DNA of 64,000 nucleotides from Octopus sinensis. Its lineage: Eukaryota. The notes beneath the pieces are model-generated. The model was given only the letters and a program-made list of their open reading frames with translations, had not been told where the DNA came from and did not search any database. Shown in pieces: positions 1,053 through 49,100 of the stretch. The stretch covers positions 21,576,001 to 21,640,000 of the forward strand of contig NC_043000.1 in assembly GCF_006345805.1 (NCBI RefSeq), written 5' to 3'. The translations under genes and the position numbers were made by a program. Position 1 is the first letter of the stretch; each line of letters starts with the position of its first letter.

Positions 1053-3068
1053 CTTCTATATCTTCTGGCTGATAGAAAATGGAATGCAGCCCAAAGACTG
1101 CATCCTACTCCAGTATCTGCTTTGACATGGTTTCTATGGCTAGGTGCCTTTCCTAATGCCAACCATTTTTCAGCATGTTCTGTATGCTTTTCTCTTTGTC
1201 TTGACAATACACGAGAGTTATAGACAAACATCACCATCATACAAGCAATGTCCATTAAAACATGACTGGCCATACGTAGGGAAATATTTACCTTACTTGG
1301 AAACAGGTGAGGTTTGGCAACAGGAACACATTTCAAAAAAGAAAAATAATCTATCAGGCTTAGAATGTGAGTTGGACATTGTGTTATCTGTGATGAGAAA
1401 CATGACTGATGATGCACAAAGGATCTTGGAATACCACCAACTTCTTCAAAAATTTCCATAAAATTTAATATTGGAGTCCATGCAAATATGTAGACAGGGG
1501 AACAAGCCAGATGACATGGTTTAAATTTGGATAATAAACCACTGCACAAAGTTAATGTTAGATTTTTTTTTTCCTTCAAAACCATGCAAAGTGGTTGGCT
1601 TGTAAAAGGCCATTTAGTAAAAGGAGGCCATAAGTCACAAAACATTGAGAACATCTCCATTAGATTCATCTTGTCGTCCAACAATGTGGTCAGTTGACAT
1701 GCTAGAAATAGCTGCCAAATTCCCATACCACACTTTACTATTTCAGTAAAAATAAAGAAGTGCATATTGGGTTATGTTGTTCTGAATGTTGTCTGAAAAT
1801 AAATTTGGAAGGTCATGGCTGGAACCCAACCACTTTGATTATAAATCTGCTCTCTCAGGGTTGATCTGGAGCTAAACAATAACAAAACGCATTTCTGTGG
1901 TGCTGCTCTAACTTATGGTAAAAAAAAAAAAACACCAGCATAGATTGTGGAACTAACCAATTTCAGCAACACAACCTTTGACTTTTCAACTAGTTTATTG
2001 GTGTCTCTATTCTCTCAACCAACCAAACACATTCTACAAATAATAATTACTAGTAGCTATACTATCAATTGTTATTGTACTTTAGTTTTTGCTTTGTTCT
2101 CAGTTCTTTGTTTTGTGTAATTCTTTAACTGTTTCTCTTTACAGACAGTAGATTATCTGAATATAATCATTTTCGTATTTTCATTTATTTTATATTGTCC
2201 TTCAAAGCTATTTGGGTCTGGTCACATCTCATGTTTGTCAACAATAGGTTTTTCAAGTAATATGTATTAAAATTATCCAGTTTATTACCATTACCTTCAT
2301 CATTTTACATCTGCTGTCCATGCTGACACGGCCTGGGTTGGTATCAGAAATAAAAATAGGGTTTCTAATTCAAGCACAAAGTCTGCAACTTTTGAAAAAA
2401 GGGCTTAGTCAATACTTTATTCTATCAACCCCTGGAGGAGGAAAAGATGACCTCAGAGGGAGTTGGGATTTGAACTCCGAATGTAAAGTCAGAAGAAATG
2501 CTAAAAACATTTTTTCCAACACTGACAATTCCACCAATTTGATGCCTTAATCATCATCATCATTGTTACCTTAATATAAATATATTCACAGACATATGCA
2601 CAAATATACACACTTCATATTCTTTACATATATATATAAATTGATTGTCAATATAACATGCATCAGCACACTCTAAAGAATAGAGCAGTAAATATCTACT
2701 ATAATAATACTCTTGTGTTTTTCTATATCACAACATATGAATGAGAAAGGAAGGGGTGATGACAAAAATTTGTAGAGGGATGATGGACAGTCTATGATGA
2801 AAAAAAAAATCAGTGTTTCAACTGTGTGTGTGTGTAAAAGGGAGTCATGTGAATGTTTGTGTGTGTGTGTGTGTGTGTGTAATGGAAGTGGGATGGTGAA
2901 CATTTCAACACTGAAAAGAAAAATCAAACAACATTTCAACTCTGTGTGAGTATATGTGTGTGCATGTGCAGGGGAAGTGTGTGGATGTTTTTATGTGTGA
3001 TTATTATGTACCTTATATTGTACCTTATTTATATATAAAATACTACAATTAGCTGTTATTTTTGACAG

Positions 3069-3112
3069 CACGGGGCCAGCTAGTTAAACATAAAGTTTAC
3101 GTCTGGTCATAG
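3069..3112 (+). CDS. Candidate terminal coding exon of an upstream gene (xRGQLVKHKVYVWS*)
   Basis: TTATTTTTGACAG acceptor, phase 1, double stop TAG TAA; no upstream exon in the window to confirm. Confidence 0.3.
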
Positions 3113-3589
3113 TAACCAATGGTTTCATATCCATGAAAGCTACAGCCTTGTGGACAACTCATCAAACTTTCTTCAAAGAAAGGTAGTGCCAAGGACCCTG
3201 TTTTTTTTTTTTTTTTTTTTTTCACGGTCTCTGGAACTAGTTAGAAGTTACCCTCAAACTGGAAGCCTTGTCTGAACACTAGCAACAGTGTGAATTCCAC
3301 TAAAGACTAAAAGACCAAATCTCTCCTTTGCCTCTTTGGATCATCATTGTTTAACGTTCGTTTTCCATGCTGACATGTGTTGGATGGCTGGACAGGAGCT
3401 GGCAAGGCCAATGGCCGCACTAGGTTTCTACAGCTGGATGCCCTTCTTAACACCAGTTACTTCACGGAGTGTACTGGCTGCTTTTTATATGTGGCACCAC
3501 CACAGAGTAGGTGCTTTTTGTGTGACACCACCACCAGCACTTTAATCTTTCACCTGGTTTCACACCATTACTCCAGTACTTTTTTTTTT

Positions 3590-4675
3590 TTAAAGCCTGC
3601 CACTTATTCTCTCAGTCTCTTTTGCTGAACTGCTAAGTTTTGGGGATATAAACACATCAGCACCAGGCACTGGTGGGACATATACAAACATTGCACGCAC
3701 ATACACACACACACATATACAAGACAGGCTTCTTTCAGTTTCCATCTACCAAATCCACTGACAATGCTTTGAGCAGCCAAAGATGTCACGCAGGGAGATC
3801 GAAACTGGAACCATGTGGTTGGGAAGCAAACTTCTTATAATAAAGCCACACGTAAGTGTAGGAAGGGCTGTGTGGTAAGTAGCTTGCTTATGAACCACAT
3901 GGTTCCGGGTTCAGACCCACTGCGTAGCACATTGGGCAAGTGTTTTCTACTATAGCCTCGGGCCAACCAAAGCCTTGTGAGTGGATTTGGTAGACGGAAA
4001 CTGGAAGAAGCCCATCATATATATGTATACATATATATATGTTTGAGTATGTATATGTTTGTGTGTCTGTGTTTGTCCCAACAACATCGCTTGACAACTG
4101 ATGCTGGTGTGTTTACGTCCTCCGTAACTTATGAGAATCTAAACATCAACATTGGCTGTCAAGTGAAGGTGGAGGGACAAACATAGACTCACACATACAC
4201 TCACACACTCTCTCACACTCACACACACACACTCACGCGTGCACTCTCACACGCACACTCTCATACACTCTCACACATATATAATATATATATATACATC
4301 TAGGGCTTCTTTCAGTTTCCATCTACCAAATCTACTCGCATGACTTTGGTTGGCCTGAGGCTATAGAAGGCACTTTACACAAGGTGCCACACAGTGGGAC
4401 TGAACCTGGAACCATGTGGTTGGAAAGCAAGTTTCTTACCACACAGCCATGCTGCACCTATATATGTGTGTGTGAGTGTGTGAATATCTTTGTTCCATTA
4501 CTACCACTTGGCAACAATATTAGTGTTTACATCCCCATAACCTAGTGGTTTGGCAAAAGAGATCAATAGAGTATCAGGCTTAAAAAAGTACTGGGGTCAA
4601 TTTGTTTGACTACAAATATTCAAGGCAATGCCCCAGCATGGCCACAGTCTAAAACTGAAACAAGTAAAAGCTAAA
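3590..4675. mobile_element. Cluster of four family A SINE copies in alternating orientation (approx. 3590-3850 -, 3857-4132 +, 4140-4460 -, 4490-4675 +)
   Basis: Matches to family A blocks 'ggctgtgtggtaagtagcttgct', 'ggatttggtagacggaaactgaaagaagcc', 'cagcatggccacagtc'. Confidence 0.85.
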
Positions 4676-5420
4676 AAGGCATGTGTGTGTGTGTGTGTGC
4701 ATGTTTTTTTTTTTTTCATTCAAATGAACCTGTGAAATAAAATATTACTGAGTGACTAGAAATCAGTTTTATGGGAAAGTAAAGTGTTTTATATAGCAAC
4801 TTTAAATACGTTACGTATGTAGAAATGACTTAACATTATGCAGAAGTCTAATTAACAATTTGCTCTATAAATAAATGAGCCAAATTAATCATTATATAAC
4901 ATTCACAACATCTTTGTATTGAAATTACTTGTGTAGCTACTGTTTCACTTTGACCGTTGACATTCTAAAATAGACCCAGTGAAAGAAAATAGTCATGAGC
5001 ATCATTCGCATGAATAGTAATGGTTAGGTTAGTGTTAATATATTTAATGTAGAGAGAAAATTAGAAATAATTATGTAGTGAGGAATGGCAGTCTTAGTTC
5101 AATGACTGTTGCAGTTAGGATTATATCAGCAAGTATGGGAGGTAACTTCCACTGTGTTTTGGTCATATTATGACCTCCTCAGCAAAGCAGACTTCATCGT
5201 TCTTGTCAAAGAAGGTTAAGAGAACCACTGAGTTGAAGTACAATGTTGTACGTGAGCAAGTGTGAAAAATTTGCATATATTAAAAAAAGAAAAATCATTC
5301 AAAGAGATTCATTCAAATGTTGTCCTCGTGTAAAAAAAGAATTATTTTTAACGTACTTAATGCAGTAATAATTAAAAATAATTTTACATACAGTGTCTGC
5401 TTTGCTGAGGAAGTCTTATA

Positions 5421-5909: not shown

Positions 5910-6156
5910 GCTATGAGGACTGTCATCTTCATATCAGATATTGTAGATGGTTTGTCCTCTTATCTGTATACTGGTACAAATTCAATAGATCACATAATTA
6001 TTATTTTACTGTATAATGCAAACAGGTCATTCAGAACTATAATGAAGCTTTAATTAGCTATTCTGTTTACTCTTTCTGTCTTTCTTTCTTGTCAGCCATT
6101 TGCTAAGTCATTACTCAGAATGACTTCTGCTAGAGCAATTGTATTGTTTTTTACAG

Positions 6157-26814: not shown

Positions 26815-27159
26815 ATTCATTCCCTGAACAGGATACCAGTCTGTCGCAAGGTTAACTTTCCAGCTATTGTCCGGAACTCATTTACGGCTGAGTAGGCTGG
26901 AGTAACATGAAATGAAGCTGATAATTTTTTCAAACATAAAATGCCATTAGAACAGCAGAAAAATTGAGTAAATTACCCTTACAAAGCGGAAAAATTTGTC
27001 AACAACCACCCAAGGGACACGAACCCACTTCCTTTAAAGACTTCAGCTGAGTGCTTTACCATTAAGCTAAAGTGCCCGCTAACAACCTTATCTGCAAATT
27101 TAGACACTATAAAGTTAAATACACAGTTATGTGCATATAGATATAAACAAACTAGCATT

Positions 27160-27501
27160 GTACAGAGATGTACTTGCATAGCAGGTGACCTGATCTGAGA
27201 TCATGTGCTTAAAAGAAAACTATTGCAGCGTGGAAGGTGTTTATAAGCCATTTAAGAAACACACAAAAACCATTAGATTGACTTCAACATTTAAATTTAA
27301 TTTGTCAAAATATTTTTACACTTTGAGCCCGCGACCTGTTCACTGACAAAATTCCTTGCAGCATCTCACGGAATTTTGTCAGTGAACAGGCTATGGTCTC
27401 AAAGCGAGGAAAATATTTTTGACAAATTAAATTTAAATGTTGAAGTGAATCTAACGGTTTTTTTGTGTTTCTTAAATGGCTTATAAACACCTTCCACGCT
27501 G
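27160..27501. mobile_element. Inverted-repeat insertion, probably paired Penelope-like terminal-repeat fragments with hammerhead-like motifs
   Basis: Arms 27223-27355 / 27370-27504 with 14-nt loop; 12-bp direct repeat CAAACTAGCATT at 27148-27159 and 27502-27513; hammerhead-like motif in each arm. Confidence 0.65.
27375..27426 (+). ncRNA. Degenerate minimal type I hammerhead-ribozyme-like motif (G3-C8 core variant); mirror copy at 27301-27350 (-)
   Basis: TTTGTCA-GTGAACA-G-[stem II]-GAAA-ATAT-TT(T)-TGACAAA. Stem II is damaged in this copy and G12 is lost in the mirror copy, so both are probably inactive. Confidence 0.5.
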
Positions 27502-28228
27502 CAAACTAGCATTTGTTTTTTTATAAAAGTCAAAATGTGTATTGTATGATGATCGTTTTTTCGAATGCAGAAACGCTGTTAGAACAGCAGAAATATTGGG
27601 TAAATTACTCATGGATGGTTGTTGACAAATTTTTCCGCTTTGTAAGGGTTAATTTACCCAAGGTTTCTACTGTTCTAACGGTGTCTCAGTGTTCAGAAAA
27701 AACTATAATCTTATTTGCATCATACAATACACATTTCAACACTTATAAAAAAAAAATTTGTTTTAATGTTAGTTTGTTTATATTTATATACATGAAATTA
27801 AGTATTTTGGTCAAGAACATGACATGCAGCTGGTCTGAGAATCAAAACCAGGATTTTACAATCGTGATTGCAACACCCTGGCCACTGGCCCTTATGCCTT
27901 CAGTTGGTTATAAAAAAAGAAACCATCACTCACAAGCGAGTATAACCTGATAGCTTGTACCCTGCTTTTGCGAATTTTTTTGGTACCCCAGATTTAGGAC
28001 AGATTTTAGGAAGGGTAGATACACTATAGTTAACTTATCTACTTAGCACCGCTATATCCATGCATATACTAACACCTCTATATACATGAATACACATTCA
28101 CTCATACATACACACACATCTCTATCTCACATGCATACACTTATCTACATATGCATGCATACATACAAACACACAGACCACAGTGCATACACACACATAG
28201 TTTTAAGCCAATGAAGGAGTCTCTACAT

Positions 28229-37265: not shown

Positions 37266-37529
37266 ATGAATAAACGAGTAGTTTTATTTTATTTTGTTTT
37301 TATTCTTTTGTGATGGAGAAAAGAAAAAAATAAACATATGAAATAATAAAAAGTATGTAATGTCTAAGTTATCTTTTGTAATATGTCTGCAAGTTAGGCT
37401 GTGAAATATGAAATTTAAAGTGTATTGTTAAAGTGTTTTTCCATTAGTGGTGTCAGGAAATCTTTAATATATGGCATCTACCAAAGCTAACTACTACAAG
37501 ATCTTATTACTTTTACAAAGACACATTCT

Positions 37530-39295
37530 GTTTCTTTATCTACATCTTTTCCTCTTTCTTTCTCTTTCCTTTTTCTTTTCACTTTCTCTCCTTTTTCCTT
37601 CACTTTCCTTTTTCTTTTTTGCTCTTTTTCTTTCTTTCCCAGTAGTTTTTTTCTCTTTCAATTTTTTCTTTTTCATTCTTTTCACTTTCTCTTCATTTTT
37701 TCCCTTTTCACTCTCTCGTCTATTTCCTTTCTCTCTATCTCCTCTCACTCTCCTTCTCTCTCTACCCTCTCCTTCCTTCTCTCTCCTCTTCTCTCTATCT
37801 CCCTTCCTCTCTCTATCTCCCTTCCTCTCTCTATCTCCCTTCCTCTCTCTATCTCCCTTCGTCTCTCTATCTCCCTTCCTCTCTCTATCTCCCTTCGTCT
37901 CTCTATCTCCTCTCTATCTATATACCTTCGTCTCTCATCTCCCTCGTCTCTCTATCTCCCTTCGTCTCTCTATCTCCCTCGTCTATCTATCCCCTTCGTC
38001 TCTCTATCTCCTTCGTCTCTCTATCTCCTTCGTCTTCTATCTCCCTTCGCTCTCTATCTCCCTTCGTCTCTCTATCTCCTTCGTCTCTCTATATCCCTTC
38101 GTCTCTCTATCTCCCCTTCGTATATCTATCTCCCTGTCTATTATTTCTCCCTTCTCTCTATCTACCTTTCTCTCTATCTCCCTCGTCTCTCTATCTCCCT
38201 TCGTCTCTCTATCTCCCTTCGTCTCTCTATTCTCTTTCGTCTCTATATCCCTTCGTCTCTCTATCTCCTTCGTCTCTCTATCTCCCTTGTCTCTCTATCT
38301 CCTTCGTCTCTCTATCTCCCTTCGTCTCTCTATCTCCCTTCGTCTCTCTATCTCCTTCGTCTCTCTATCTCCCTTCGTCTCTCTATCTCCCCTTCGTTCT
38401 CTATCTCCCTTCGTCTCTCTATCCCCTTCGTCTCTCTATCTCCCTTCGTCTCTCTATCTCCTTCGTCTCTCTCTCCCTTCGTCTCTCTATCTCCCTGTCT
38501 CCTCTATCTCTTCGTCTCTCTATCTCCTTCGTCTCTCTATCTCCCTCGTCTCTCTATCTCCCTTCGTCTCTCTATCTCCCTTCGTCTCTCATCTCTTGTC
38601 TCTCTATCTCCTTCGTCTCTCTATCTCCCTTCGTCTCTCTATCTCCCTCGTCTCTCTATCTCCCTTCGTCTCTCTATCTCCCTTCGTCTCTCTATCTCCC
38701 TTCGTCTCTCTATCTCCCTTCGTCTCTCTATCTCCCTTCGTCTCTCTATCTCCCTTCGTCTCTCTATCTCCCTTCGTCTCTCTATCTCCCTTCGTCTCTC
38801 TATCTCCCTTCGTCTCTCTATCTCCCTTCGTCTCTCTATCTCCCTTCGTCTCTCTGTCTCCCTTCGTCTCTCTGTCTCCCTTCGTCTCTCTCTCTCCCTT
38901 CGTCTCTCTGTCTCCCTTCGTCTCTCTATCTCCCTTCGTCTCTCTGTCTCTCCCTTCGTCTCTCTGTCTCTCTCTCTGTCTCTCTGTCTCTCTCTCTGTC
39001 TCTCTGTCTCTCTCTCTGTCTCTCTGTCTCTCTCTCTGTCTCTCTGTCTCTCTCTCTGTCTCTCTGTCTCTCTCTCTGTCTCTCTGTCTCTCTCTCTGTC
39101 TCTCTGTCTCTCTCTCTGTCTCTCTATCTCTCTCTCTGTCTCTCTTTCCTCTCTCTGTCTCTCTTTCCTCTCTCTATCTCTCTTTCCTCTCCTCTCCTTC
39201 CGTCTCTCCCCACTCTCCCCACTCTTTCCCTCTCCCTCTCTCTCTCCCTCCCTCTCTCTCCTGCTCTCTACCTCTCTACCTCTCTCTCTCTCTCA
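37530..39295. repeat. 1.8-kb polypyrimidine tract including an 18-bp minisatellite (TCTCCCTTCGTCTCTCTA)n at ~37790-38945
   Basis: Directly visible; gives the spurious FVSLSP-repeat ORF. Confidence 0.95.
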
Positions 39296-39574
39296 AGACA
39301 CTCTACACTTAAAGAACTTCTTACCATTCCATCTTCTATAATGAATGACTGGAGATTCATTGATAACACCAGTCATTCCAACACTGGCAAACAGTCTGCT
39401 GCCACAACTGACGTCTCGACAACTGAACTGAAATTGCTTTTCTCCTTATTAACCAACTGCAATGACTTCAGCGTGTTTGTATTATACGTTAATATATTCT
39501 GATGAGTCAACACAATGCCCATACCCATTCAGTTCCTTCTTGTCGGACTTACATCAAACAAATATCAGATCATT

Positions 39575-44749: not shown

Positions 44750-45747
44750 AGTAATTTTATCAAAAGCAAGACAATTTAAAGATAAAATAGAGAAAAATTA
44801 AATAAACACAGGGGCCTGACCAGCTGCTATCAGTTTGTGTCAATTGCCATTATGACCGCAGGTGTTCTTCAAACCCTACACTACCAAATCAGGATAACAG
44901 TGGCCTGTCTGAGAAATGAGCCCCATGAGGTAGAGTGGCTTCTTCAGTGAGTGCTGCTGACCATTCTCCATGGCATTGCCATCATGGTCATGATTGGTGG
45001 GGAGGGGCACAGCTGAGCACACCATTTGTTCTGGGATATGTGGCCCACTGCCCCCTCACTCTCCATTTTCTGCTGCTTAACCTCCTTTTTTCTTTCTTTG
45101 TTTCTTTGTATTTAAATGTTATAATCTAAAACATGATCAGCTGCTTTAAAATAAAAATATCAAGTTTTTTATGAAATGATAATTAACAAATATGAAGAAA
45201 AAAAAGATACTACAAGCTTTATTTTTTAGTAGACATTAGTTGAAATATAGTTGCTAGACACACTAAACGTTAACTGGAAAACTCACACCACACTTCAAAA
45301 AAAAGTCTCTCAGCACCTTTTTCACCTGACTGTCCAGGTAATAGAAACGAAGGGTGCTTACATAGTTGACCTGTTTCACTGATACATGAGACTACTTTAT
45401 GAAAGAAGTATGTGTAAAATGTATGACTAATTTTATTACTATTTGGGTGCAGGAAATTAAGAGTGACTGTTTTGTTTGTCCTTATTTGATCAATGATTTT
45501 TGTTTTTTCAGTGAAGCTATCAAGCCAGTCCAAAGCTTAAAAAAATTGTGTCCTTGTTTTCACTTACATATCCAATAGTATAAAACCTAGTCTTAAGTTT
45601 TTGCTATGTGACAAAAATTTATATTTATATTCATATTTATCAAATGTGAAAGATAAATTATTAAATAGAACATCAATCTACTTCTGTTACATTACCTGAT
45701 TATCTTACTTATTTCCAACAATTTACTCTGATTGTTCTTCCTTTCCT

Positions 45748-46143
45748 CACGCCTCATCCTTTCCCCGTGCCTCATCCATTCCCCACGCCTTGATCTCCCC
45801 CCCCCCCCGCGCCTTGTCCTTTCCTCGCACCTCAACCTTTCCCCGCGCCTCAACCTTTCCCCGCGCCTCAACCTTTCCCCGCGCCTCAACCATTCCCCGC
45901 GCCTCAACCATTCCCCGCGCCTCAACCATTCCCCGCGCCTCAACCATTCCCCGCGCCTCAACCATTCCCCGCGCCTCAACCATTCCCCGCGCCTCAACCT
46001 TTCCCCGCGCCTCAACTTTTCCCCGCGCCCCAACCATTCCCCGCGCCCCAACCATTCCCCGCGCCTCAACCATTCCCCGCGCCCCAACCATTCCCCGCGC
46101 CTCAACCATTCCCCGCGCCTCAACCATCCCCGCGCCTCAACCT
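45748..46143. repeat. GC-rich 18-bp minisatellite (CCTCAACC[A/T]TTCCCCGCG)n, ~17 core units plus degenerate units on the left
   Basis: Directly visible; open in several frames because the unit has no stops. Confidence 0.95.
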
Positions 46144-49100
46144 TCCTTGTCATCAGATTTATAAGCAACCCTTGGTGATTTATTTCAATAGAATATGAGA
46201 TGCACTTTTGTCCGAAAAATATCTCGAAAATATCCCCCCCAAATCCAGTATGTAACATTAGGCTTATATTACATGTTTTAATGCAGCTCTGAAATATAAG
46301 CATGTCTAATATGCCCATAACTTTTATGCCATTAAATATGGTATTTGTCATGGAATTTTTATGGATGAATACTAAGGTGATCCCCCACTCCTACAAGTAA
46401 TTTTCTGCAAAACACCATTTTGTTGGCTACATGCATAGAAGTCTGCTACTTCTGTGCGTTGGGAATGTTCAAAGCTCGAATATATTTTGTCCAAAGCTCT
46501 AACAATTCCAGCCTTGTCCTTGAATTTATTTTATTGACTAGAAGTTTAAAAAACACTGGTAACCTCAGTGGAATTTGAACTTGAAACTCAGAGCTGAAAC
46601 AAATACTGCTAGGTATTTAGTTTGATATGCTACTAATTTTACTAATTAGCCATCTAACTAAGCTTAAGAATGTACAATTACTAAATATGTTTCATAAGAT
46701 ACCTTCAGTGGATTAGAACACAAAATCTTTTAGCTGGTAATCCAATTGTACATACACTTAAAATTCTTTGTATTAATAGAGGAGAGCCAGTATAGACAAT
46801 TTTTATTTCCATTGTTAATTAGTTATTTAATTCTCTCGTACATTAGCACTTCTGCTAATTGCATAAAGTAAGAAACCTATATCAAACCTATATTAAATTT
46901 TATGTTGTTTGATTTGTCACTTAATTGTAACCTTGAAAGAAGGTCTGGGGAGCTGCCCTGCTTTCTGTGAATAAACTACAAAATATATCTTTTAGATAAT
47001 TCAGTGATTCTTTTTGGAAACATATTAGCAAGTTAGTAATAGTAAATATATTGTTGGCTTTCATCACAACCCTGCCTCATTCGGAGGTATAAAATTATTA
47101 ATTTTGTGCTTGTCCTTGATACTACAGTCTTGTGGTTGTGGTATTTACAAAATATCATTAGTAATATGCACTAAATTTACATCATTATTTTCAACCAAAA
47201 ATACTAATATAGACACCCAATTTTTTTTTTTCTTTTAGTTTCCTCGCTGCTGATTTGTTAAACAGAGGCAAACAATTTTGTATTAAAAAGACTGTCTTGG
47301 TATATAATGGCATTTATACTTTGCTTAACCCTCTTGTTATCATCATCGTTTAATGTCCGTTTTCCATGCTAGCATAGGTTGGACAGTTCAACCGGGGTCT
47401 GGTAAGCCAGGAGGCTGCACCAGGCTCCAGTCTGATCTGGCAGTGTTTCTACAGCTGGATGCCCTTCCTAACACCAACCACTCTGTGAGTGTTGTGGGTG
47501 CTTTTTACATGCCGCCGGCACAGGTGCCAGGGGAGGCTGGCAATGACCACAATCGGTTGGTGCTTTTTACATGCCACTAGCACGGAAGCCAGTCAAGGCA
47601 GCGCTGGCATTGGCCACGTTTGGATGGTGCATTTTATGTGCCTTCCTTTAATTCAGTTAATTTGTTTAAAACAATGAAGGATTTATTAAAACAGTCTTGT
47701 CGTGGCATTTGGAACATAAATCAACAAGAAATTTTGATGGGAGGCTTTAATTTGGATCTCTTTAAAACGGAATTTGTATTAGTTTCAGGTGAGTTGGTAG
47801 CAAAAGGGTTTAGTTACTTTTGCAATGAAGTATTCTAGATATTTTAACATTCTGCTGTGTCTGTCTATTAGATTATATGTGCTGTGAAAATAAAATTAGT
47901 TTAGTCTCAATGGAGATTTTATTTATTGATTTTATTCAAATGTCTATTGTAACTGATGGATAGCTGAAATATCAAAAAAAAAAATTCTTTGATGATGTTT
48001 CTGTCTAAAAGTCCCTAATGTATTTATTTAATTCTAGTGATACCTTTTGTTCATCTGTGATACATGTGTGTATATACCACGTGACTGACCAGATTCTCAG
48101 TTGTTGTTTCACAAAGCTGGTCACAATGCACTTTGTTGCATCATTTCAGTCTTCCAGTGATGCCACCCCACTGGCTAAGTGAGCAGGCCAAGATCCCCCT
48201 CCCCCCCCCCAACCTCATCACTGATCAAAAGGAGTACTGGAGTAAAATGAAACTGTGTTTTGCTCAAGAACACAACACAATGCACTGCTTGGTCTGGGAA
48301 TTGAACCCACAACCTAGCAATCATGAATGCAACAGGCTAACCACTTGGCCATACTGTCACTAATATATATATGTGTCTGTGTGTGGCATGTAAAAATCAC
48401 CCGCTACACTCTTGGAGTGGTTGGCATTAGGAAGGACATCCAGCCATAGAAACCTTGCCAAATCAGATTGGAACCTGAAGCAGTTCCCCAGCTTACCAGT
48501 TTTCAGTCAAACTGTCCAACCCATACCAGCATGGAATATAGACGTTAAACGATGATGATGATTGTGTGTGTGCATGTATGTGTGTCAAAATACAGTATAT
48601 CCATGTGCATATAAAATATTTTTTAAACCCTATTCTGTATCTTATACACTCTTAGGCATACACACATGGTTAAGAGGTTTGCTTCAAAATAGAAGGTTCA
48701 ATCCCACTGCATGGCAATTTGGGAAAGTGTCTTCTTCTGTCTTCTGCCAAATTTCACTCATTACCTTGTGAGTGGAATTTGGCTGATGTAAACTGTATGA
48801 AAGGCCATTGTGTGTGTGCATGCGCATGCATGTACATGCATACCAGTGTATCAAGTTGTGTCTCTTTGTGTTAAAGGGCAACTTAAGCCATTTGATAAAG
48901 GTCAATGAAATAAGTGCAGGGATCAATACGATTAACTTTAAGAAAAAAAACCCTGAAGATTATGCCCCAGTATGGTCATACCTCTATAATTGAAACCTTT
49001 TTTTTTTTTAAACTTCACCAATAATTTAATCAGATCATGATAATCCTCATACATCCATTTTTCCATGTTGACATAGTTTGGATGGGACTTATATCCCTTC

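What the first reader, a model, noticed from the sequence alone, without database searches (positions are those of the whole stretch)
27148..27513. Foldback of two hammerhead-like repeats with a compensatory G3-C8 catalytic core
Seen: a ~133-bp-arm palindrome (27223-27355 / 27370-27504) inside a 12-bp direct repeat CAAACTAGCATT. The + arm reads TTTGTCA GTGAACA G GCTAT GGTCTCAAA GCGAG GAAA ATAT TTT TGACAAA. The - arm reads TTTGTCA GTGAACA G GTCGC GGGCTCAAA GTGT AAAA ATAT TT TGACAAA. Combining them gives stem I (TTTGTCA/TGACAAA), core GUGAACA, stem II (GTCGC/GCGA[C]), GAAA, a palindromic ATAT in place of stem III, then UH. Established: this is the layout of minimal type I hammerheads in Penelope-like elements. 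Positions 3 and 8 of CUGANGA form a tertiary Watson-Crick pair, so G3-C8 is the compensatory swap, and Penelope insertions often carry inverted terminal repeats. Inference: a cephalopod Penelope-like family uses a non-canonical hammerhead that CUGANGA-based searches would miss. Both copies here are decayed.
Basis: partly seen in the sequence, partly recalled or inferred. Interest (0 to 1): 0.75.

Follow-up and report, generated by a model that had tools for sequence, protein, structure and literature searches.

The report
Swapped-core hammerhead in octopus Penelope element
This palindrome is a short, decayed, head-to-head copy of the front end of a Penelope-type jumping gene, likely from an octopus, and its family carries a hammerhead-shaped RNA whose normally fixed C-G core pair is swapped to G-C, likely a natural but still untested variant of a self-cutting RNA that searches for the usual core would miss.

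Summary
Confirmed. [quoted passage not shown] I found the autonomous parent elsewhere in the genome (repeat - RT/GIY-YIG ORF - repeat); the arms are its mRNA leader, the tail its first codons. The family majority has every published feature of PLE minimal hammerheads except C3-G8, which is G3-C8 (91 of 98 arms). A sister family has U3-A8 in the homologous motif; 5 of 10 pairs differ between the two, all five compensated. A second, separate PLE lineage switches between G3-C8 and A3-U8. A TATA box at -30 and an extra 5' G (23 of 33 arms) suggest copying from capped, uncut sense RNA. Both window copies are predicted dead. Cleavage is untested; RNA data show no cut ends. Natural G3-C8 was not found in ten literature searches, but one key paper was unavailable. 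The scan noted this family before on other DNA. New variant of a known kind.

The parts
27148..27159 (+). Left copy of the 12-bp target-site duplication
   Evidence: Identical to 27502-27513. The mirror arm of the older foldback into which the element inserted holds this word only once, at 27765-27776. Family: non-simple duplications of 8 or more bases in 31 of 58 copies against 1.9% in shuffled flanks.
27160..27222 (-). PLE 'tail': about 62 nt present on one arm only; it is ORF sequence between the two inferred reverse-transcription start sites
   Evidence: Tail on exactly one arm in 91 of 100 head-to-head pairs, never on both. Runs on into the long ORF in L254, L256, L264.
27159..27251 (-). 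First 31 codons of the parent ORF (ATG at 27251), one stop inside
   Evidence: Translation; tblastn 72% to residues 1-29 of the L282 ORF, E 8e-7.
27223..27367 (-). Tailed arm: mRNA leader from the inferred start site (A at 27366, extra G at 27367) through the hammerhead into the ORF
   Evidence: Extra G before the start in 17 of 25 and 6 of 8 arms that reach this point without upstream element DNA.
27301..27350 (-). Hammerhead-like motif, G3-C8 core at 27343-27337; predicted cut between 27308 and 27307; predicted dead (G12 and C11.1 lost, stem II 3' strand damaged)
   Evidence: against the family majority.
27368..27504 (+). Inverted partner arm, 5'-truncated by about 10 nt, ends 29 nt into the ORF (ATG at 27476), no tail
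   Evidence: Tailless arms end at unit positions 139-148 in 25 of 31 pairs.
27375..27426 (+). Hammerhead-like motif, G3-C8 core at 27382-27388, unpaired G 27389, G12 at 27409; predicted cut between 27419 and 27420; predicted dead (stem II broken, one extra U)
   Evidence: against the family majority.
27502..27513 (+). Right copy of the target-site duplication; first 3 bases shared with the element end

Best explanation
The palindrome is a decayed short insertion of an endonuclease-bearing Penelope-like retroelement whose family carries a minimal type I hammerhead-shaped RNA with a G3-C8 core pair, and that RNA is likely a slow, dimer- or protein-assisted self-cleaving ribozyme. Shown: the parent has the layout repeat - RT/GIY-YIG ORF - repeat; the arms are the 200 nt from just upstream of the hammerhead to the first codons; G3-C8 is the family's normal state and covaries with U3-A8 and A3-U8 in related families. 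Inferred mechanism of this copy: a capped sense transcript starts at an initiator 30 nt behind a TATA box in the terminal repeat; the element's protein nicks AT-rich DNA on both strands 12 bp apart and primes cDNA at two internal sites (about +30 and +91 of the ORF); both cDNAs run towards the cap of the uncut RNA and are joined head to head, giving two arms, one tail and the duplication. Inferred role of the hammerhead: occasional cutting of the leader or of tandem precursors 55 nt before the start codon, not needed for insertion. Both window copies would not cut.
For: Parent: 546 exact hits of a longer upstream form; L245 runs without a break from a GIY-YIG ORF stop (Pfam PF01541 over cut-off) through a 1-kb 3' region into the motif and tail; L282 has the motif at 1558 and 5919 around an ORF 1657-4868 with one frameshift; best protein hit 56% to an Octopus vulgaris protein named RT-domain-containing, other relatives carry PF00078 or PF01541. 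Architecture: 69 head-to-head pairs, 0 tail-to-tail in 86 loci, 31 and 1 in 60 more; tail on one arm in 91 of 100; duplications of 8-13 bp; all as described in PMC3846280, PMC8557442, PMC11167929. Hammerhead: stems I and II fold with pair probabilities 0.86-1.0 apart from the outermost pair; unpaired base after A9, G10.1-C11.1 and a palindrome for stem III are the hallmarks listed in PMC4209133; loop II varies between subfamilies while stem II and core stay. Covariation: sister family (homologous downstream, score 86 against a shuffled maximum of 58) differs at 5 of 10 pairs, all five on both sides and Watson-Crick, including 3-8 (U3-A8 in 24 of 25 copies); family B has 41 A3-U8, 31 G3-C8 and 6 other of 78 (tallied by hand), its two groups differ at 4 of 319 columns, two being 3 and 8; the two G3-C8 lineages are not one clade (p-AU 4e-5). 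The made C3G/G8C double mutant partly restores cutting in a PLE hammerhead (PMC11167929). Start site: TATA at -30 in 22 of 30; extra G in 23 of 33.
Against: No cleavage was measured. Truncated arms are not enriched at the cut site (3 of 35 within 3 nt) and three RNA-seq runs show no pile-up of ends (ordinary cDNA libraries of a related organism, 6% read, so weak). The family's stem III palindrome is very weak (-0.2 kcal/mol against -8.3 for the ACCGGU of other families) and position 17 is U. Conservation inside the family is mostly shared ancestry (core 2.0% against 3.5% downstream). Each covariation is a single evolutionary event, not many. Pfam finds no RT domain in the parent ORF and the PDB search finds nothing, so the RT call rests on motifs and relatives. 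Rfam gives no hammerhead match. The extra G could in part come from junction microhomology.
Confidence: 0.75

Rival explanations
1. Same element, but the motif no longer cuts: it is kept as a hammerhead-shaped fold that serves protein binding, translation control or template choice, and G3-C8 is a tolerated way of damping catalysis.
For: Inserted copies hold the whole uncut motif; no excess of ends at the cut site; weak palindrome and U17; PMC11167929 reports that catalytic mutants do not affect insertion in vitro and found no RNA-seq ends at the site; PMC4209133 leaves functions other than cleavage open.
Against: The 3-8 pair forms in the active conformation, and it is compensated in two lineages; U4 G5 A6, A9, G12 A13 A14, A15.1 and U16.1 are unchanged between families that are 63% identical.
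Confidence: 0.17
2. G3-C8 is an accident: two mutations fixed in one master copy whose hammerhead was already dispensable.
For: The family is close to star-shaped, about 4% from its majority, so within-family counts are not independent; Naiad PLEs spread without canonical hammerheads (PMC8557442).
Against: Five of five changed pairs are compensated between sister families (my rough chance estimate from 36% background divergence is under 1 in 1000); G3-C8 arose separately in family B; the younger subfamily changed loop II but not the stems or core.
Confidence: 0.06
3. The foldback is a MITE or other DNA-transposon derivative and the hammerhead likeness is incidental.
For: Short, non-coding, palindromic, high copy number.
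Against: Duplication length varies (8-13 bp); arms are variably truncated at the centre; about half of motif-selected loci are single arms (29 of 60); the sequence is continuous with an RT + GIY-YIG ORF.
Confidence: 0.01

Closest known systems
Minimal type I hammerheads (min-HHR) in the pLTRs of metazoan PLEs; Cervera and de la Pena 2014, PMC4209133 (read parts 1-2 of 4 of the text and parts 1-2 of 3 of the supplementary PDF)
   Same: Type I topology, unpaired base between 9 and 10.1, G10.1-C11.1, palindrome in place of stem III, place in the terminal repeat; head-to-head pairs on opposite strands are mentioned; U3-A8 covariation is described in Schistosoma.
   Different: G3-C8 core. Every core in the parts of the Fig. 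S3 alignment (56 motifs by its legend) that I read begins CUGA or UUGA; neither G3-C8 nor A3-U8 appears.
Poseidon of Anolis carolinensis (PAc); Frangieh et al. 2024, PMC11167929 (read parts 1-2 of 4)
   Same: Hammerhead at the repeat-ORF junction, two internal RT start sites that define a tail, AT-rich targets, uncut RNA as insertion template; the made C3G/G8C double mutant partly cuts.
   Different: PAc is C3-G8 in nature and its ORF starts inside the hammerhead; here the ORF starts 55 nt after the predicted cut, the tail is about 62 nt, and the protein has a CxxxCxxC linker before the endonuclease.
Adineta vaga Penelope families; Arkhipova et al. 2013, PMC3846280 (passages)
   Same: Terminal repeat holds TATA and initiator and the first codons, tail extends the coding part, adjacent inverted repeat head to head, 8-10-bp duplications.
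   Different: That paper favours an antisense template for head-to-head copies and leaves the question open; here an extra 5' G at the initiator points to a capped sense template.
Natural hammerhead core variants; Perreault et al. 2011, PMC3088659 (passages)
   Same: Natural covariation of the 3-8 pair.
   Different: Only U3-A8 is named in the passages I saw.
Non-LTR retrozymes; bioRxiv 10.64898/2026.07.22.740005 (read part 1 of 5)
   Same: Short non-coding PLE-related repeats with type I hammerheads.
   Different: Retrozymes are head-to-tail tandems; these copies are single or head-to-head pieces of an autonomous element's own leader.

Membership tests
EN+ Penelope-like element | Single ORF with RT and C-terminal GIY-YIG endonuclease | tested here: met
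   Parent ORF in L247, L282, L301. GIY-YIG over the Pfam cut-off on the L245 piece. RT by motifs seen in the translation (DKSG, D..SLYPSI, YVDD; motif names recalled) and by relatives named RT or carrying PF00078; Pfam itself found no RT.
EN+ Penelope-like element | Direct pseudo-LTRs flanking the ORF | tested here: met
   L282: unit at 1558-1747 and 5919-6050.
EN+ Penelope-like element | Inverted, 5'-truncated copy head to head | tested here: met
   100 head-to-head pairs against 1 tail-to-tail in 146 loci.
EN+ Penelope-like element | Tail on one end, made of the ORF start | tested here: met
   91 of 100 pairs have one tail, none two; tail translates as the N-terminus.
EN+ Penelope-like element | Target-site duplication of variable length in AT-rich DNA | tested here: met
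   31 of 58 non-simple, mostly 8-13 bp, control 1.9%; many others lie in (TA)n.
EN+ Penelope-like element | [quoted passage not shown] | tested here: met
   Seen directly in the translation, with two histidines behind; feature as stated in PMC8557442.
Neptune / Nematis clades of PLE | Zn-finger-like linker between RT and EN, and RT phylogeny | tested here: inconclusive
   A CxxxCxxC linker is present, but no reference PLE proteins were in hand; the element falls on a long branch apart from the other linker-bearing families of this genome. Clade not assigned.
EN+ Penelope-like element | Intron in the terminal repeat (some families) | tested here: inconclusive
   An acceptor-like word precedes the unit, but no shared upstream exon exists in short copies; read instead as an initiator.
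Minimal type I hammerhead | Stems I and II form around the core | tested here: met
   four compensated stem pairs against the sister family.
Minimal type I hammerhead | U4 G5 A6, A9, G12 A13 A14, A15.1-U16.1, H17 | tested here: met
   Majority at 91-100% per position; H17 is U.
Canonical hammerhead consensus | C3 and G8 (CUGANGA) | tested here: not met
   G3-C8 in 91 of 98 arms not selected on the motif; no Rfam hammerhead match at E up to 10.
Minimal type I hammerhead | Watson-Crick pair between 3 and 8 | tested here: met
   G-C here, U-A in the sister family, A-U and G-C in family B.
Minimal type I hammerhead | Unpaired base after A9, G10.1-C11.1, palindrome for a dimeric stem III | tested here: met
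   the palindrome duplex is predicted very weak.
Minimal type I hammerhead | Site-specific self-cleavage | not testable with these tools
   No assay possible; sequence data show no excess of cut ends.
Non-LTR retrozyme | Head-to-tail tandem units each with a hammerhead | tested here: not met
   Copies are single or head to head.
MITE / DNA foldback transposon | Fixed-length duplication, fixed terminal inverted repeats, no link to an RT | tested here: not met

The most novel reading that the evidence does not exclude
Octopus PLEs have explored all four Watson-Crick versions of the hammerhead's 3-8 pair (C-G, U-A, A-U, G-C), G3-C8 arising at least twice, as working, protein-assisted ribozymes whose rate is tuned down so that most genomic RNA stays uncut; the hammerhead consensus used in searches is then too narrow, some PLE groups called hammerhead-less may not be, and the capped-G footprint on thousands of short copies shows in vivo that head-to-head PLE insertions are copied from capped sense RNA primed at two internal sites.
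Probability: 0.5. Interest if true: 0.7.

Novelty: new variant of a known kind. Interest (0 to 1): 0.55.

Why it matters
The 3-8 pair holds the general acid of the hammerhead in place, and G3-C8 was known to me only as a made rescue mutant (PMC11167929, PMC8495972, PMC3884650); natural variation described in the papers I could read stops at U3-A8. A natural G3-C8 family with a U3-A8 sister, and a second lineage with A3-U8 and G3-C8 in near-identical surroundings, gives matched natural pairs for asking what PLE hammerheads are for, and shows that CUGANGA-based searches miss most such motifs in this genome (3459 hits for an open 3/8 pattern, mostly U3-A8 among the first 100 listed, against 577 for a slightly wider C3-G8 pattern). 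The extra-G footprint bears on the open question, posed in PMC3846280, whether head-to-head PLE copies come from sense or antisense RNA. The window copy itself is a dead fossil.

Tried and rejected
Rfam scan: only hairpin-type chance matches, no hammerhead. Generic GIY-YIG search: its 30 best loci were other PLE families or host genes with no match to the unit; loci also did not match. Intron idea: the longer upstream form looked like a branch point plus acceptor (note); dropped because short copies share no upstream exon and a TATA word sits at -30. A 5-copy array at 2.5-3.2-kb spacing (L243, L244) is a host tandem duplication that carries an insertion, not tandem PLEs. DNA tree of family B was muddied by unrelated flanks and is not used. 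Pfam and PDB found no RT in the parent ORF; the Atlas did not hold the protein. Sequencing runs: no RNA holder listed; raw reads of three RNA runs found by species label cover the unit in both orientations about equally (1658, 1232, 1246 reads) and the ORF far less, which fits passive transcription inside host RNAs and says nothing on cleavage. A possible third G3-C8 family with an ACAUGU palindrome (4 hits) lacks a clear stem II and sits tail to tail in the one locus read (L138); not counted. None of 20 canonical C3-G8 loci could be tied to an endonuclease next to the motif, so their PLE origin is not shown. Rows dropped before counts: duplicate loci L033, L038, L051, L091; L050, another repeat, from the extra-G count; L142, L159, L165 as duplicates. 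Luense et al. 2017 (small hammerhead variants of PLEs) and Przybilski and Hammann 2007 (3-8 exchanges) were not held; either may already describe or limit G3-C8. Part 3 of the supplement of PMC4209133 and the supplements of the other papers were not read.

Full report
Observation. The palindrome, the 12-bp direct repeat and both hammerhead-like strings are in the sequence as described. The arms align at 124 of 134 paired columns. The element is larger than the palindrome: 62 nt at 27160-27222 belong to it, because 30 aligned copies from the own genome share that end. The family is abundant: 3739 first-look candidates (40 scored) and 388 exact matches to the 47-nt majority motif, with 0 for the reversed control. 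The 12-mer is a true target-site duplication: the element sits in one arm of an older foldback whose other arm holds the word once, and 31 of 58 complete copies have non-simple duplications of 8 or more bases, mostly 8-13, against 1.9% in shuffled flanks.

Architecture. Read on the strand of the hammerhead, the unit is about 205 nt. In 86 loci there were 69 head-to-head pairs and no tail-to-tail pair; in 60 further loci picked only on the motif, 31 head-to-head, 1 tail-to-tail and 29 single arms. One arm usually starts at a fixed point about 20 nt before the core and the other is often cut short at the centre. Tailless arms end near unit position 139-148, tailed arms at 202; 91 of 100 pairs have one tail and none has two. 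Changes mirrored in both arms of a copy exceed chance at non-CpG sites (23 against a control mean of 5.9, maximum 14.8), as expected if both arms came from one template, though later conversion would do the same. This is the PLE pattern described in PMC8557442 (passages and Introduction), PMC3846280 (passages) and PMC11167929 (parts 1-2 of 4).

The parent. A generic GIY-YIG search did not reach it. A loose end in RNA reads led to a longer upstream form with 546 exact hits. In L245 the sequence runs without a break from the stop of a GIY-YIG ORF through a 1-kb CA-rich region into the hammerhead, arm end, tail and (TA)n. On the other side the unit runs on into a long ORF whose start codon is unit position 112 (L254, L256, L264); the window copy still encodes 31 of these codons. 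L282 is a whole element: motif, ORF with one frameshift, motif again 4.36 kb later. The protein shows RT motifs, a CxxxCxxC linker and a GIY-YIG domain with two cysteines inside. Pfam did not call the RT; the best relative is an Octopus vulgaris protein named RT-domain-containing (56%), and other relatives carry PF00078 or PF01541. I take the host to be an octopus from that hit. The clade is not assigned.

The hammerhead. The majority form is a 7-bp stem I, core GUGAACA, one unpaired G, a 5-bp stem II closed by G10.1-C11.1, GAA, the palindrome AAUAUU and U17. Stems I and II are the predicted fold alone and in context. PMC4209133 lists the unpaired base, G10.1-C11.1 and the palindrome as hallmarks of PLE minimal hammerheads. 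Positions 3 and 8 are G and C in 91 of 98 arms not selected on the motif. A younger subfamily has another loop II with the same stem and core. The window copies are damaged: the + copy has lost stem II, the - copy G12 and C11.1.

Is G3-C8 selected? Counts within one family are ancestry, so I looked across families. A sister family, whose endonuclease is about 49% identical and groups with this one at 100/100, has the homologous motif with U3-A8 in 24 of 25 copies. Anchored on the core, 5 of 10 pairs differ between the two majorities (three in stem I, one in stem II, and 3-8), and all five change on both sides to another Watson-Crick pair; with 36% background divergence my rough chance estimate is under 1 in 1000. 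A distant family B, 200 nt behind an endonuclease ORF in 10 of 19 G3-C8 loci and 2 of 3 A3-U8 loci, has 41 A3-U8, 31 G3-C8 and 6 other of 78 matches (tallied by hand); the two groups differ at 4 of 319 clear columns, two of them 3 and 8 (groups were defined on these two). The G3-C8 lineages do not form one clade (p-AU 4e-5 on a 20-row endonuclease tree). An open pattern gave 3459 hits against 220 control, mostly U3-A8 among the first 100 listed; a C3-G8 pattern gave 577 against 43. So all four Watson-Crick versions occur in this genome. Each switch is one event; the case rests on two or three events.

How the copy was likely made. In copies that keep upstream DNA, a TATA word lies exactly 30 nt before the A of an initiator-like word in 22 of 30 loci. 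Arms that reach this A without upstream element DNA have a G in front of it in 17 of 25 and 6 of 8 fresh cases, where the element's DNA has a pyrimidine. An untemplated G from copying the cap is my recalled explanation; it implies a capped sense template. The window's - arm has this G (27367). With the two internal start sites of PMC11167929, the simplest model is two cDNAs primed from nicks 12 bp apart, at about +30 and +91 of the ORF, running towards the cap and joined head to head. The template was uncut: arms hold the whole motif, and truncations are not enriched at the cut site (3 of 35). This model is inference.

Against activity. No assay was possible. The palindrome duplex is predicted at -0.2 kcal/mol, position 17 is U, and RNA reads show both orientations equally with no pile-up of ends (three ordinary libraries of a related organism, 6% read). 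For it: the made C3G/G8C double mutant partly restores cutting in a PLE hammerhead, which needs protein (PMC11167929), and in others (PMC8495972, passages); PMC3884650 (passages) says G3-C8 does better without C17, which both G3 families lack.

Novelty. Ten full-text searches found no natural G3-C8 or A3-U8 hammerhead; PMC4209133 and PMC3088659 name U3-A8 only; the Octopus vulgaris repeat annotation PMC13282606 has no occurrence of 'hammerhead' or 'ribozyme' in its main text. PMC6765202 and PMC6155905 were seen as passages. Luense et al. 2017 and Przybilski and Hammann 2007 were not held. Earlier notes of this scan, opened after my reading was formed, report the same swapped core on other DNA (by sequence showed nothing). 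Verdict: an ordinary PLE insertion that carries a new variant of a known ribozyme; interest 0.55.

Noticed in passing
window 27117-27159 and 27505-27807: An older, larger foldback (arms about 80% alike, pairs I3-I5) into whose left arm the finding inserted; its other arm shows the empty site. Family not identified.
   Followed up: partly
window 26929-27076 (-): A tRNA-like head (Rfam tRNA 22 bits, under the cut-off) followed by sequence shared with the centre of the older foldback (D2 and I2): likely a SINE related to it.
   Followed up: no
L131-L160, L166-L168, L173-L192: PLE family B with G3-C8 and A3-U8 sublineages in near-identical surroundings; some A3-U8 copies carry a short duplication of the stem I strand and core.
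   Followed up: yes
L302-L326: Sister family with a homologous U3-A8 hammerhead, CA-rich 3' region, the same two end points and a tail (1428 first-look candidates).
   Followed up: yes
L068, L074, L075, L126, L164, L169, L079: Several further PLE families carry U3-A8 cores, one carries A3-U8 (L079), directly behind GIY-YIG ORFs; many sit as head-to-head pairs 0.02-3.6 kb apart.
   Followed up: partly
G000:C1:182078660-182079399 and C2:188530505-188531246: Canonical C3-G8 minimal hammerheads repeated at about 355-nt spacing, retrozyme-like (listing).
   Followed up: no
L138 and three other hits: A GUGAGCA ... GAAACAUGU repeat that lies tail to tail in L138; stem II unclear.
   Followed up: no
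L247:4437-8375: A 3.9-kb insertion in the 3' region of a near-complete parent copy.
   Followed up: no
window 37468-39502 and 45692-46390: 18-nt-period minisatellites with strong strand skew that give long stop-free frames.
   Followed up: no
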